Below are positions 1 to 1,992 of a DNA stretch of 2,230 nt, piece by piece. The DNA comes from Escherichia coli (GTDB lineage: Bacteria; Pseudomonadota; Gammaproteobacteria; Enterobacterales; Enterobacteriaceae), in the NCBI RefSeq assembly GCF_003334815.1, contig NZ_QOWO01000088.1. The stretch is one strand, 5' to 3'. Under the pieces are notes generated by a model. The model was not told the DNA's origin, searched no databases, and worked only from the letters and a program-made list of their open reading frames with translations. Within the stretch, counting starts at the first letter, position 1; every line of letters starts with the position of its first letter. The position numbers and the translations under genes were made by a program.

Positions 1-23
1 CTTTTCAAAAGGGTATTTTGGCT

Positions 24-52
24 TTGACATATTAGGGGCTATTCCATTTCAT
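24..52 (+). promoter_or_regulatory. Candidate sigma70 promoter upstream of yjiX: consensus -35 TTGACA (24..29), 17-bp spacer, weak -10 TTTCAT (47..52)
   Basis: Read directly from the sequence. The -35 is a perfect consensus hexamer but the -10 matches TATAAT at only 4 of 6 positions. This region may instead be the 3' end or intergenic tail of an upstream gene. No experimental basis. Confidence 0.2.
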
Positions 53-108
53 CGTCCAACAAAATGGGTGCAGTACACGGCGGGGCTTTGTTCTTATCAG
101 AGTGAACT

Positions 109-312
109 ATGTTTGGTAACTTAGGACAGGCAAAAAAATATCTCGGCCAGGCGGCGAAGATGTTGATTGGCATTCCAGACTACGACAACTACGTCGAGCA
201 TATGAAGACCAACCATCCCGACAAGCCGTACATGAGCTATGAAGAATTCTTCCGCGAACGCCAGAACGCACGCTACGGCGGCGATGGTAAAGGCGGTATG
301 CGCTGTTGTTAA
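109..312 (+). CDS. yjiX: Small DUF466-family protein (YjiX/YbdD-like, 67 aa), the type usually encoded next to a CstA/BtsT-family transporter gene
   Basis: ATG at 109 to TAA at 310..312, 67 aa. The translation ([67 protein letters not shown]) matches the short YjiX/YbdD family as I recall it, and it sits immediately upstream of yjiA as in E. coli. The Shine-Dalgarno sequence is weak (GAGTGA). Confidence 0.85.
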
Positions 313-322
313 TGGAGAGAGC

Positions 323-1279
323 ATGAACCCGATTGCAGTTACCCTACTCACCGGTTTTTTAGGCGCGGGCAAAACCACCCTGCTGCGCCATATTCTTAAC
401 GAACAACACGGCTACAAGATTGCCGTGATTGAAAACGAATTCGGCGAAGTCTCCGTTGATGATCAACTGATTGGCGACCGCGCCACGCAGATCAAAACGC
501 TGACCAACGGCTGCATCTGCTGTTCGCGCTCCAACGAGCTGGAAGACGCACTACTCGACCTGCTGGATAATCTCGACAAGGGCAATATTCAGTTCGACCG
601 TCTGGTCATTGAATGCACCGGCATGGCCGATCCCGGCCCGATTATTCAGACCTTTTTCTCCCATGAGATTTTATGCCAGCGCTACCTGCTGGACGGCGTG
701 ATTGCGCTGGTGGATGCGGTACATGCCGATGAGCAGATGAACCAGTTCACCATCGCCCAGTCCCAGGTTGGCTACGCCGACCGTATTCTGCTGACGAAAA
801 CCGACGTCGCAGGCGAAGCAGAGAAACTGCGTGAACGCCTGGCGCGCATCAACGCCCGCGCACCGGTCTACACCGTTACCCACGGCGATATCGACCTGGG
901 CCTTCTGTTCAACACCAACGGTTTTATGCTGGAAGAAAACGTCGTCAGCACCAAACCGCGTTTCCACTTTATCACGGACAAACAAAACGATATTTCGTCG
1001 ATTGTGGTGGAACTGGATTACCCGGTAGATATCAGCGAAGTTTCCCGGGTGATGGAAAACCTGCTGCTGGAGTCGGCGGATAAACTACTGCGTTACAAAG
1101 GGATGCTATGGATTGACGGCGAACCTAACCGCCTGCTATTCCAGGGCGTCCAACGCCTCTACAGCGCCGACTGGGACCGCCCGTGGGGCGATGAAAAACC
1201 GCATAGCACGATGGTGTTTATCGGGATTCAGTTGCCGGAGGAAGAGATTCGGGCAGCGTTTGCGGGGTTGAGGAAGTAA
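323..1279 (+). CDS. yjiA: COG0523/CobW-family P-loop GTPase (G3E-type putative metal chaperone), 318 aa
   Basis: ATG at 323 preceded by GGAGA (314..318); stop TAA at 1277..1279. Walker A motif GFLGAGKTT at residues 11-19 (nt 353..379). The family-defining CxCC metal-binding motif GCICC is at residues 63-67 (nt 509..523). Length and N-terminus (MNPIAVTLLTGFLGAGKTTLLRHIL...) fit E. coli YjiA. The ORF-track start at 239 is an upstream in-frame ATG inside yjiX and is rejected in favour of 323. Confidence 0.95.
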   Translation: MNPIAVTLLTGFLGAGKTTLLRHILNEQHGYKIAVIENEFGEVSVDDQLIGDRATQIKTLTNGCICCSRSNELEDALLDLLDNLDKGNIQFDRLVIECTGMADPGPIIQTFFSHEILCQRYLLDGVIALVDAVHADEQMNQFTIAQSQVGYADRILLTKTDVAGEAEKLRERLARINARAPVYTVTHGDIDLGLLFNTNGFMLEENVVSTKPRFHFITDKQNDISSIVVELDYPVDISEVSRVMENLLLESADKLLRYKGMLWIDGEPNRLLFQGVQRLYSADWDRPWGDEKPHSTMVFIGIQLPEEEIRAAFAGLRK

Positions 1280-1290
1280 TTTTGGATGAT

Positions 1291-1321
1291 GGCCGCCATG
1301 TGGCGGCCTGAATTATTTTTT
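1291..1321 (+). terminator. Putative intrinsic terminator after yjiA: stem GGCCGCC/GGCGGCC with ATGT loop (1291..1308), then a T6 tract (1316..1321)
   Basis: Perfect 7-bp GC-rich inverted repeat seen directly, 12 nt after the yjiA stop. The T-tract is separated from the stem by 7 nt (TGAATTA), which is suboptimal. It lies in the 33-bp gap between the convergent yjiA and brnA genes. Confidence 0.45.
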
Positions 1322-1615
1322 GTTCTGATCGCGCAGCATCGCTTCACGTAAAATTGCGTTCAGGCGAGTTTGATAGCCTTTACCTGGTCGCTTCAACCAT
1401 TCCATCACATCAGCATCAATACGCACCGAAGCCTGAGTTTTCAATGGCCGATAAAACTTACCGCGTTCGGCGTTAGACCATTGCTCATCGCTGGAAGGTG
1501 GGATATCACTGTAATCAATATCTTCGTCGGATTTATTCGCCAGCGCCTTCAGTTCGGCCTCATGCTGCACATCGAGTGTAGAGGAGGTCCCTCGTTTATG
1601 TTTAACCATGCTCAT
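1313..1615 (-). CDS. brnA: BrnA-family antitoxin (DUF4415, ribbon-helix-helix-type DNA-binding C-terminus), 100 aa
   Basis: ATG at 1615..1613 preceded by a strong Shine-Dalgarno sequence (AAGAGAGGA, 6 nt upstream on the minus strand); stop TAA at 1315..1313. The translation (MSMVKHKRGTSSTLDVQHEAELKALANKSDEDIDYSDIPPSSDEQWSNAERGKFYRPLKTQASVRIDADVMEWLKRPGKGYQTRLNAILREAMLRDQNKK) has the acidic D/E-rich middle and the GKGYQTR-N-LRE C-terminal signature I associate with BrnA. The 29-aa N-terminal extension in the ORF track (start 1702) is out-of-frame read-through across the brnT 3' end and is rejected. Confidence 0.8.
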   Translation of the reverse strand: MSMVKHKRGTSSTLDVQHEAELKALANKSDEDIDYSDIPPSSDEQWSNAERGKFYRPLKTQASVRIDADVMEWLKRPGKGYQTRLNAILREAMLRDQNKK

Positions 1616-1878
1616 AGCGATTCCTCTCTTTACGATCTGCTTTTCGTGCACTGATGATTCGAATAATTTCATTTCCGCTTTCGAAACGGATGGTATGCGC
1701 AACCAGAATAACCACGATGCCGTAATGTCTGCCAGCGATACTCACCGTTTTCTATGCGTTCTTGCTGTGACAAATGTTGTGGATCATCAAACAATAACAC
1801 CGCATCTTCAAAGCGGATGCCATGTTTCACCCGATTACTTTTGGCCTTGTTTTCATCCCATTCAAACTCCATTGGCAT
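1602..1878 (-). pseudogene. brnT: BrnT-family toxin (DUF497, RelE-like fold ribonuclease toxin) disrupted by an apparent +1 frameshift near 1722
   Basis: The N-terminal half (MPMEFEWDENKAKSNRVKHGIRFEDAVLLFDDPQHLSQQERIENGEYRWQTL) reads in the frame of the 1669..1905 ORF. The conserved C-terminal half (GIVVILVAHTIRFESGNEIIRIISARKADRKERNRYEHG, stop TAA at 1604..1602) is in a different frame that has no start codon. Removing one base around 1722 (minus-strand ACATTA-C-GGCATC) would join them into one 91-aa ORF of typical BrnT size. The reconstructed 3' end overlaps the brnA start by 14 nt, the usual toxin-first brnTA layout. The start is ambiguous: ATG at 1878 (preferred, with GGGATGG 5 nt upstream), 1887 or 1872. 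Confidence 0.6.
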
Positions 1879-1893
1879 AATTGCCATCCCTAA

Positions 1894-1905
1894 TTGTATA
1901 TACAA
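1894..1905. promoter_or_regulatory. Perfect 12-bp palindrome TTGTATATACAA just upstream of the brnT start; candidate operator for the BrnA/BrnTA repressor
   Basis: Exact self-complementarity seen directly in the sequence. It lies 16 nt upstream of the preferred brnT start codon in the AT-rich leader. Ribbon-helix-helix antitoxins typically autoregulate through palindromic operators. Function is inferred, not shown. Confidence 0.3.
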
Positions 1906-1960
1906 AAATGTATCTACAATTATTCTGCAATTATAGCGTTGATGTTGGAAATAGCATCAC
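1906..1960 (-). promoter_or_regulatory. Candidate brnTA promoter region: consensus -10 TATAAT on the minus strand (1935..1930) with a poor -35; direct repeat CAATTAT at 1917..1923 and 1928..1934
   Basis: Hexamer and repeats read directly. The -35 match is weak (ATGCTA at 16-bp spacing). An alternative pair, TTGTAG/TACAAT, overlaps the palindrome at 15-bp spacing. Promoter assignment is tentative. Confidence 0.2.
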
Positions 1961-1992
1961 GTTTCGAATAATCAACCATGAAATTGACAATG

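What the first reader, a model, noticed from the sequence alone, without database searches (positions are those of the whole stretch)
1..322. Possible own promoter for yjiX-yjiA; the two genes are tightly linked and probably co-transcribed
A perfect TTGACA at 24..29 with a weak -10 at 17-bp spacing lies about 80 bp upstream of yjiX, and yjiX and yjiA are separated by only 10 bp. Pairing a small DUF466 protein with a COG0523 metal-chaperone GTPase is a conserved but functionally poorly understood arrangement. This is a modest observation, since the promoter call is weak.
Basis: partly seen in the sequence, partly recalled or inferred. Interest (0 to 1): 0.2.

Follow-up and report, generated by a model that had tools for sequence, protein, structure and literature searches.

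The report
IS150 end, not a yjiX promoter
The supposed promoter in front of yjiX-yjiA is the left tip of an IS150 insertion sequence that landed in the terminator between btsT and yjiX; a published reporter assay found this exact motif silent, so the finding is ordinary.

Summary
But window 1-77 is not native upstream DNA. It is 77/77 identical to the left end of IS150, and the TTGACA is the antisense of the transposase orfA start (ATG at 30-28, minus strand).

Native E. coli DNA resumes at base 78, in the loop of the btsT terminator hairpin, 31 bp before the yjiX ATG. None of 5,426 complete E. coli genomes has this junction. 5,381 carry yjiX-yjiA, and the two uninterrupted loci read had a 49-bp btsT-yjiX spacer.

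Fuqua & Wagner (2025) assayed this strand of the IS150 left end. The wild-type TTTCAT, 17 bp after the -35 box, gave baseline signal. One change to TATCAT made a strong promoter. So it is a latent proto-promoter, not a working one.

Natively yjiX-yjiA appear to be fed by read-through from the btsT promoter. Gene order is conserved (80/80 and 78/80 loci). In Salmonella Typhi yehUT mutants the three genes fall stepwise. Here IS150 probably cuts them off.

The closer conserved partner of the small DUF466 protein is the CstA-type transporter, not the COG0523 GTPase. Co-transcription of yjiX-yjiA is supported; the own-promoter idea is not. Interest is low.

The parts
1..77 (-). Left end of an IS150 insertion sequence (IS3 family): the terminal inverted repeat with tip TGTAC at 77-73 on the minus strand, the orfA leader, and the first 10 codons of orfA. 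The rest of the 1,443-bp element lies left of the window.
   Evidence: 77/77 identical to the IS150 left end of K-12 MG1655 (annotated mobile element) and to two other copies. The same stretch occurs at 5,906 places in 2,848 of 5,426 E. coli genomes, annotated as IS150 transposase. Matches to the native locus begin only at base 78.
1..30 (-). Start of IS150 orfA (insJ-type): ATG at 30-28, reading leftward out of the window.
   Evidence: Translates to MSKPKYPFEK. K-12 insJ starts 47 nt inside the IS tip, the same offset as here.
24..29 (+). TTGACA, a perfect -35-like hexamer on the outward-reading strand. It is the antisense of orfA codons 1-2 (cATGTCAAag).
   Evidence: Invariant in all 5 IS150 copies aligned.
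47..52 (+). TTTCAT, a non-functional -10-like hexamer 17 bp after the TTGACA. Together they form the latent proto-promoter of the IS150 left end.
   Evidence: PMC12095673 section 11, hotspot #4 of 1L(-): wild-type TTTCAT scores 1.10 units (1.0 = no expression). TaTCAT, 17 bp downstream of a -35 box, scores 3.26.
78..80 (.). CGG, the first native bases after the IS tip and the probable 3-bp target-site duplication.
   Evidence: Native sequence is ...GCTTCGGCGGGGC. IS150 makes 3-bp duplications (PMC11708052). The second copy lies outside the window, so this is inferred.
80..95 (+). Orphaned 3' arm (GCGGGGCT, 80-87) and T-tract (TTGTTCTT, 88-95) of the btsT intrinsic terminator. The 5' arm is now about 1.4 kb away, on the far side of IS150.
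   Evidence: The native hairpin is AGCCCCGC-TTCG-GCGGGGCT plus TTGTTCTT, at -19.8 kcal/mol with z = -3.55. No hairpin forms in the window version.
96..108 (+). Native leader and weak ribosome-binding region of yjiX (ATCAGAGTGAACT).
   Evidence: Identical to uninterrupted E. coli loci.
109..312 (+). yjiX, a 67-aa DUF466 (PF04328, YbdD/YjiX family) protein ending in RCC.
313..322 (+). 10-bp yjiX-yjiA spacer carrying the yjiA ribosome-binding site GGAGAG.
   Evidence: The gap has a median of 12 bp in 78 loci.
323..1279 (+). yjiA, a COG0523 metal-binding GTPase.
   Evidence: NCBIfam NF008578 scores 682 bits against a cut-off of 361. Near-identical to PDB 1NIJ/4IXM.
1291..1308 (+). Intrinsic terminator that closes the yjiX-yjiA unit (GGCCGCC-ATGT-GGCGGCC, then a T-rich tail).

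Best explanation
Window 1-77 is the left end of an IS150 element. It transposed into the loop of the btsT intrinsic terminator, 31 bp upstream of the yjiX start codon. The TTGACA-17-TTTCAT motif is a fixed part of that element. It overlaps the antisense of the transposase orfA start. It is a latent proto-promoter: silent as wild type and one T-to-A change (window base 48) away from a strong outward promoter.

In uninterrupted genomes yjiX-yjiA have no room for a promoter of their own. The E. coli spacer is 49 bp and most of it is the terminator. The two genes are transcribed together as the distal part of btsT-yjiX-yjiA, by read-through of a leaky terminator from the BtsS/BtsR-dependent btsT promoter.

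In this strain IS150 splits that terminator and puts 1,443 bp between the btsT promoter and yjiX. The strand facing btsT carries a terminator-like hairpin. yjiX-yjiA are therefore probably uncoupled from pyruvate-responsive control and expressed only at a low, adventitious level.

Shown: the IS identity, the junction position, the split terminator, the gene-order conservation, and (published) the silence of the motif. Inferred: native read-through in E. coli itself, and the reduced expression in this strain.
For: IS identity:
- Native matches start at base 78, and bases 1-77 hit IS150 transposase loci.
- 77/77 identity to the annotated K-12 IS150 left end.
- The minus strand of 30-1 reads MSKPKYPFEK, the orfA start.

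Junction and terminator:
- The native 49-bp spacer with its hairpin and T-tract is aligned against the window.
- The hairpin is lost in the window.
- The junction is absent from 5,426 complete E. coli genomes and from metagenome contigs. Bases 78-2230 are 100% identical to many strains.

Promoter silence:
- PMC12095673 chose the IS150 ends because they had no detectable promoter activity.
- On the outward strand of the left end, TTTCAT scores 1.10 units and TaTCAT, 17 bp after the -35 box, scores 3.26.
- The known IS150 outward promoter is at the 3' end, which faces btsT here (PMC11101190).
- The scan does not call the site.

Native transcription:
- BtsT is upstream in 80/80 loci and YjiA downstream in 78/80.
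- A hairpin plus T-tail sits in the btsT-yjiX spacer in 55/80 loci, usually ending 17-23 nt before the yjiX ATG.
- In S. Typhi yehU, yehT and yehUT mutants the log2 changes are -6.5 for the btsT ortholog, -4.0 for the yjiX ortholog and -2.3 for yjiA (PMC3875573).

Block to read-through: a 15-bp-stem hairpin followed by TTTAATTT lies on the IS150 strand that faces btsT.
Against: - No transcript data exist for this strain or for the E. coli yjiX 5' end in the library I could search.
- The published assay used a plasmid in DH5alpha under one growth condition, so weak or conditional activity in the chromosome is not excluded.
- The stepwise Salmonella fold changes also leave room for some btsT-independent transcription of yjiX-yjiA. 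An RpoS-RNA polymerase binding peak was reported inside yjiY (PMC5493296).
- The left IS junction is outside the window. Full length, an intact element and the target duplication are assumed, not seen.
Confidence: 0.8

Rival explanations
1. One reading: TTGACA(24-29)-17-TTTCAT(47-52) is a working, if weak, sigma-70 promoter. It starts transcription near base 59 and gives yjiX-yjiA their own expression.
For: The -35 is perfect and the spacing is the optimal 17 bp. The position, 56 bp before the ATG, is sensible. IS3-family ends are enriched in promoter-like signatures and some do drive neighbouring genes (PMC12095673). The combined motif appears in only 5.6% of shuffles.
Against: The -10 lacks the essential A at position 2, and there is no extended -10 TG. 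The same sequence was measured as inactive, and only the TaTCAT mutant fired. The motif is a constrained part of IS150, being the antisense of the orfA start. It is not in the native spacer of the two uninterrupted E. coli loci read, and the IS150/yjiX junction was found in none of 5,426 complete genomes.
Confidence: 0.07
2. yjiX-yjiA are still expressed from the btsT promoter. With the terminator hairpin destroyed, transcripts run from btsT through the whole antisense strand of IS150 into yjiX, so coupling to btsT is kept or even increased.
For: The insertion separates the two arms of the terminator, so the native stop signal is gone. No strong terminator is seen in the last 77 bp of the IS.
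Against: The incoming strand of IS150 has a 15-bp-stem hairpin followed by TTTAATTT about 45-80 nt inside the right end. About 1.4 kb of untranslated antisense RNA is the kind of substrate Rho acts on (established knowledge; not tested here). Fuqua & Wagner report that a promoter must lie within about 150 bp of an IS3 end to drive a neighbouring reporter.
Confidence: 0.12
3. yjiX-yjiA have a native promoter that lies outside the window, for example inside the 3' part of btsT. They were never dependent on the btsT promoter.
For: An RpoS holoenzyme SELEX peak lies inside yjiY. The Salmonella fold changes shrink along the operon, from -6.5 to -4.0 to -2.3, which fits an added basal source.
Against: No promoter-like site was found on the + strand in the last 580 bp of btsT. 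The strong yehUT dependence of the yjiX ortholog (16-fold) argues that most of its transcription comes from the btsT promoter.
Confidence: 0.15

Closest known systems
IS150 left-end proto-promoter ('1L(-)' hotspot #4; Fuqua & Wagner, Nat Commun 2025, PMC12095673)
   Same: It is the same DNA. Window 1-77 is identical to the K-12 IS150 left end. The motif is the same: a -35 box, a 17-bp spacer and TTTCAT on the outward strand.
   Different: Nothing in the sequence differs. Here it sits in a chromosome 56 bp upstream of a real gene pair rather than in front of a reporter. The activating TaTCAT change is absent.
Outward or hybrid promoters of insertion sequences, including the IS150 3'-end outward promoter that drives 'proto-genes' in the LTEE (PMC11101190)
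   Same: An IS end facing a downstream gene and carrying a -35-like hexamer.
   Different: The documented IS150 outward promoter is at the opposite (3') end, which faces btsT here. No usable -10 exists in the IS tip or in the flanking native DNA, so neither a complete promoter nor a hybrid one is formed.
Polar IS insertion in an operon, such as classic IS1/IS2 polarity
   Same: An IS sits between a promoter-proximal gene (btsT) and distal genes (yjiX-yjiA) and carries a terminator-like hairpin on the incoming strand.
   Different: The insertion is intergenic and lies exactly in the loop of an existing leaky terminator. It therefore removes one stop signal while adding others. The net effect has not been measured.
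cstA-ybdD, the paralogous transporter plus DUF466 pair of E. coli (Hwang et al. 2018, PMC5847655)
   Same: A CstA-family pyruvate transporter gene is followed on the same strand by a roughly 65-aa DUF466 gene. YbdD is 73% identical to YjiX. Deleting ybdD has nearly the same phenotype as deleting cstA.
   Different: No COG0523 gene follows ybdD; a convergent gene, hcxA, does. A requirement of BtsT for YjiX has not been tested in any paper I could find.

Membership tests
Functional sigma-70 promoter | -35 hexamer close to TTGACA | tested here: met
   6/6 at 24-29.
Functional sigma-70 promoter | -10 hexamer with the conserved A at position 2 and T at position 6, 16-18 bp downstream, or an extended -10 TG | tested here: not met
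   TTTCAT at 47-52 has T at position 2, and there is no TG at 44-45. The hexamers at 16-bp and 18-bp spacing (ATTTCA, TTCATC) are worse. The site is not listed by the scan.
Functional sigma-70 promoter | Measured transcription initiation or reporter activity | not testable with these tools
   Published for the identical sequence: no detectable activity, 1.10 units against 3.26 for the TaTCAT mutant (PMC12095673). Not measured in this strain.
Functional sigma-70 promoter | Present and conserved upstream of the gene in related genomes | tested here: not met
   The two uninterrupted E. coli loci read have a 49-bp spacer made mostly of the terminator, without this motif. The IS150/yjiX junction is found in 0 of 5,426 genomes.
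IS150 (IS3 family) terminal region | Sequence identity to the IS150 left inverted repeat and orfA start | tested here: met
   77/77 identity to the annotated K-12 IS150; orfA N-terminus MSKPKYPFEK.
IS150 (IS3 family) terminal region | Abrupt break of homology with the uninterrupted locus at the IS tip (5'-TG...CA-3') | tested here: met
   The native match starts at base 78, and the IS ends in ...GCAGTACA at 77.
IS150 (IS3 family) terminal region | 3-bp target-site duplication and a complete 1,443-bp element with the orfA/orfB frameshift | not testable with these tools
   The other junction and the body of the IS lie outside the window. Other copies are 1,443 bp with 3-bp duplications.
IS-derived hybrid promoter (-35 in the IS, -10 in flanking DNA) | A -10-like hexamer in native DNA 16-18 bp after a -35-like hexamer at the IS tip | tested here: not met
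   Nothing passes in 60-108. The TTGACA lies 48 bp inside the tip.
btsT-yjiX-yjiA operon with a leaky internal terminator | Conserved co-directional gene order | tested here: met
   BtsT upstream in 80/80 loci and YjiA downstream in 78/80.
btsT-yjiX-yjiA operon with a leaky internal terminator | Hairpin plus T-tract between btsT and yjiX | tested here: met
   In native E. coli the hairpin is -19.8 kcal/mol with z = -3.55. 55/80 loci have one, mostly 17-23 nt before the ATG. In the window it is split by IS150.
btsT-yjiX-yjiA operon with a leaky internal terminator | Co-regulation or a continuous transcript | not testable with these tools
   Literature only: S. Typhi yehUT mutants show a stepwise drop of all three genes (PMC3875573). 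I found no E. coli transcript map.
DUF466 / YbdD-YjiX family (PF04328) | Roughly 65-aa protein matching PF04328 with a C-terminal Cys-Cys | tested here: met
   RefSeq annotates the identical gene as a YbdD/YjiX family protein. All 120 listed homologs carry PF04328. H31, H36, C66 and C67 are invariant. The NCBIfam KCU-star hit is below its cut-off, 61.9 against 85 bits.
COG0523 GTPase (YjiA) | Equivalog-level model match and a solved structure | tested here: met
   NF008578 scores 682 bits against a cut-off of 361. PDB 1NIJ/4IXM match at E = 4.5e-213.

The most novel reading that the evidence does not exclude
This rare insertion may be a natural 'poised' allele. IS150 has cut yjiX-yjiA off from pyruvate-responsive btsT control and parked a one-mutation-from-active promoter 56 bp in front of them. 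If BtsT needs YjiX as CstA needs YbdD, the strain would be a natural hypomorph of inducible pyruvate uptake, and it could recover or rewire by a single T-to-A change at base 48.

Linked to this, IS150 may choose targets by a short GCCYCR motif next to the 3-bp duplication. Such motifs often sit in the 5' arm of GGGGCTTT-type terminator hairpins. That would explain both its hok/sok hot spots and this hit in the btsT terminator.
Probability: 0.25. Interest if true: 0.3.

Novelty: already known. Interest (0 to 1): 0.13.

Why it matters
It matters mainly as a correction. A textbook-looking -35 box at a window edge turned out to be mobile-element DNA, and the same motif has already been shown experimentally to be silent. 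Three smaller points follow:
- It shows how an IS insertion can uncouple the distal genes of an operon from their regulator while leaving a promoter-in-waiting.
- It redirects attention from the DUF466-COG0523 pairing to the more widespread CstA-type transporter plus DUF466 pairing. That pairing has functional support for the paralog pair CstA-YbdD.
- It gives a concrete strain context for testing whether BtsT needs YjiX.

None of this would surprise a specialist.

Tried and rejected
- Looked for published yjiX 5'-end or operon maps. Full-text searches for yjiX/yjiA/yjiY gave no transcript mapping. The supplements of the Conway 2014 operon paper are not held, and the id I tried for the Thomason 2015 dRNA-seq paper is not held.
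- Tried to find the source strain or other carriers of the junction. There are none among 5,426 complete E. coli genomes, and there was no exact match in metagenome contigs. E. coli E69 (L003) has the native spacer.
- Looked for a hybrid promoter across the IS/native junction, or any other + strand promoter in 1-108. None was found.
- Looked for a promoter in the last 580 bp of btsT in an uninterrupted genome. None on the + strand.
- Tested whether the window RNA refolds into a new terminator. It does not.
- Tested the idea that IS150 needs a terminator hairpin as its target. Rejected as a requirement: five de novo LTEE insertions lie inside ORFs with no consistent hairpin. A fixed-orientation rule was also rejected, because hokA sites occur in both orientations.
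- Rfam scan of the window: nothing relevant.
- PDB search for YjiX: no real relative, only a weak zinc-finger-linker resemblance.
- Several distant DUF466 look-ups landed on contigs too short to show neighbours.

Full report
**1. What the window holds**

On the + strand the window carries three features:
- yjiX at 109-312. It encodes a 67-aa DUF466 protein ending in RCC.
- yjiA at 323-1279. It encodes a COG0523 GTPase, with NCBIfam NF008578 at 682 bits against a cut-off of 361. It is near-identical to PDB 1NIJ.
- An intrinsic terminator at 1291-1308.

Downstream, on the minus strand, lie a BrnA/BrnT module and the end of an IS1.

**2. Check of the observation**

TTGACA is at 24-29. After 17 bp comes TTTCAT at 47-52. 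The yjiX ATG is at 109, and the yjiX-yjiA gap is 10 bp and contains GGAGAG. So the letters are as described.

They are not clearly more than chance would give:
- TTGACA occurs twice against 1.38 expected.
- A perfect -35 with a -10 of at least 4/6 at exactly 17 bp occurs in 5.6% of 2000 dinucleotide shuffles, and in 16% when 16-18 bp is allowed.
- The -10 lacks the key A at position 2, so the promoter scan does not list the site.

**3. What bases 1-77 really are**

A search of 5,426 complete E. coli genomes found yjiX-yjiA in 5,381 of them. The best matches, at 100% identity, begin only at window base 78. Bases 1-77 instead hit thousands of places annotated as IS150 transposase.

They are 77/77 identical to the left end of the annotated IS150 of K-12 MG1655 and to other copies. 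On the minus strand, 30-1 reads ATG TCA AAG CCA..., which is MSKPKYPFEK, the start of orfA. The 'perfect TTGACA' is therefore the antisense of the transposase start codon and its second codon. It is present in every IS150 copy for that reason.

**4. Where the element landed**

In uninterrupted genomes btsT stops 49 bp before yjiX. The spacer is mostly an intrinsic terminator: AGCCCCGC-TTCG-GCGGGGCT followed by TTGTTCTT, at -19.8 kcal/mol with z = -3.55.

Alignment shows the IS tip abutting the CG of the loop. Window 80-95 is therefore the orphaned 3' arm and T-tract, and the 5' arm is on the far side of the element. CGG at 78-80 is the likely 3-bp target duplication. This is inferred, because only one junction is visible.

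The window RNA no longer forms the hairpin. The junction is absent from all 5,426 complete genomes and from metagenome contigs. Bases 78-2230 are 100% identical to many strains. This is a rare, recent, strain-specific insertion and not an evolved regulatory region.

**5. Is the motif a promoter?**

Fuqua & Wagner (Nat Commun 2025, PMC12095673) cloned the terminal 150 bp of IS150. They chose these ends because they had no detectable promoter activity, and they scanned mutants on both strands.

On the outward strand of the left end, their hotspot #4 is exactly this site. Daughters with wild-type TTTCAT score 1.10 units, where 1.0 means no expression. TaTCAT, '17 bp downstream of a -35 box', scores 3.26. 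Hotspot #3 is TGACAT to TaACAT, at window 25-30.

It is silent as it stands and one substitution from being active. The window has the wild-type, silent form.

The outward promoter documented for IS150 lies at its 3' end (PMC11101190). In this orientation that end faces btsT, not yjiX. No hybrid promoter is formed with the flanking DNA.

**6. How yjiX-yjiA are normally transcribed**

I examined 80 Enterobacterales loci:
- A BtsT gene is directly upstream in 80/80, and YjiA is downstream in 78/80.
- The yjiX-yjiA gap has a median of 12 bp.
- A hairpin with a T-tail sits in the btsT-yjiX spacer in 55/80 loci. It usually ends 17-23 nt before the yjiX ATG, although its sequence varies.

In E. coli there is no room for a promoter after the terminator, and none was detected in the last 580 bp of btsT.

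In Salmonella Typhi, deleting yehU, yehT or both (the btsS/btsR orthologs) lowers all three genes stepwise. The log2 changes are -6.5 for the btsT ortholog, -4.0 for the yjiX ortholog and -2.3 for yjiA. The S. Typhimurium yjiX ortholog behaves likewise and is restored by complementation (PMC3875573).

This is the pattern expected if the distal genes are fed by read-through of a leaky terminator from the btsT promoter. Some independent basal transcription is not excluded. An RpoS-RNA polymerase binding peak inside yjiY was reported (PMC5493296). I found no transcript map for E. coli itself.

**7. Consequence in this strain (inferred)**

IS150 now separates yjiX-yjiA from the btsT promoter by 1,443 bp. 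The strand that faces incoming transcription has a 15-bp-stem hairpin followed by TTTAATTT near the right end. It would also be a long untranslated RNA.

The most likely state is that yjiX-yjiA are uncoupled from pyruvate-responsive control and expressed weakly. Read-through across the IS is a minority alternative, and weak firing of the proto-promoter a smaller one still.

**8. The pairing claim**

The DUF466-COG0523 pairing holds within Enterobacterales (78/80). The more general partner of DUF466 is the CstA-family transporter:
- In K-12 the paralog pair is cstA-ybdD, followed by a convergent gene and no COG0523 gene.
- Among independent distant DUF466 loci with DNA, a CstA-like gene is directly upstream in six of seven. 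None shows a YjiA-like gene downstream.

Hwang et al. 2018 showed that deleting ybdD has nearly the same phenotype as deleting cstA, and they concluded that the two proteins form one pyruvate transporter system (PMC5847655). A preprint also notes that both E. coli DUF466 genes sit next to CstA-type transporters.

**9. Verdict**

The sequence observation is accurate, but the reading is wrong about the promoter. The motif belongs to a mobile element, is not in the native btsT-yjiX spacer, and has been measured as silent. Co-transcription of yjiX-yjiA is supported. Every component is already known; only the insertion site is new, and it is rare. Interest is low.

**10. Side observations**

IS150 insertions in natural genomes cluster in hok/sok loci: 10 of 10 evenly sampled copies. 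They lie immediately after a GCCTCR motif, inside hairpins that end in GGGGCTTTT.

Three of five de novo LTEE insertions, all inside ORFs, also follow GCCTCA or GCCTCG. The btsT terminator (AGCCCCGCTT[CGG]CGGGGCTTT) is a similar target. This suggests a sequence preference rather than a need for a hairpin. The motif was defined after seeing the data and needs a proper test.

Noticed in passing
window 60-95; L002 600-640 and 2078-2110; L084, L085, L098-L112: IS150 target sites share a short motif. All 10 evenly sampled natural copies lie in hok/sok loci, right after GGCCTCA or GGCCTCG and inside hairpins ending in GGGGCTTTT. Three of five de novo LTEE insertions inside ORFs also follow GCCTCA or GCCTCG. 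The btsT terminator site AGCCCCGCTT[CGG]CGGGGCTTT resembles these. The motif was defined post hoc. The hok/sok association itself is already in the literature (PMC11551753).
   Followed up: partly
L002 678-712 (IS150 right end, strand antisense to the transposase): A 15-bp-stem hairpin followed by TTTAATTT lies about 45-80 nt inside the IS150 right end, on the strand that incoming host transcription would use. It could shield the element from outside read-through and make insertions polar in this orientation.
   Followed up: no
L003-L082, the 17-23 nt upstream of the yjiX ATG: A hairpin with a T-tail ends at nearly the same distance (17-23 nt) before the yjiX start in 55 of 80 Enterobacterales. 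Its sequence differs widely: REP-like in Klebsiella and Citrobacter, AT-richer in Xenorhabdus and Pectobacterium. The position seems conserved rather than the sequence.
   Followed up: partly
window 109-312 (YjiX): YjiX has invariant H31, H36, C66 and C67 across 17 homologs. Its segment 21-45 ([11 protein letters not shown]) weakly resembles the C2H2 zinc-finger H-x3-H plus TGEKPY linker (PRDM9, E = 4e-5). NCBIfam places it near the KCU-star selenoprotein family, below the cut-off. Two His plus two Cys next to a COG0523 metal-binding GTPase hints at metal binding.
   Followed up: no
window 323-1279 (YjiA): Besides its own equivalog model, YjiA hits the CobW-related selenoprotein model NF041053 (E = 9e-14, below the cut-off). 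Both genes of the pair therefore have selenoprotein relatives.
   Followed up: no
window 1313-1615 (-) and about 1602-1878 (-): A BrnA antitoxin gene sits next to a frameshifted BrnT toxin gene, as annotated in strain HS30-1. This is a decayed toxin-antitoxin module directly downstream of yjiA.
   Followed up: partly
window about 2052-2230: The window ends inside an IS1 element; HS30-1 annotates an IS1 family transposase there. The yjiX-yjiA-brnTA block is thus bracketed by two different insertion sequences in this strain. The IS1 junction is shared with many strains, whereas the IS150 junction was found in none.
   Followed up: partly
window 1881-1989 (+): The second TTGACA (1984-1989) and two promoter-like sites (1881-1909, 1945-1972) lie in the AT-rich spacer between brnT and the IS1 end. 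Their function is unknown.
   Followed up: no
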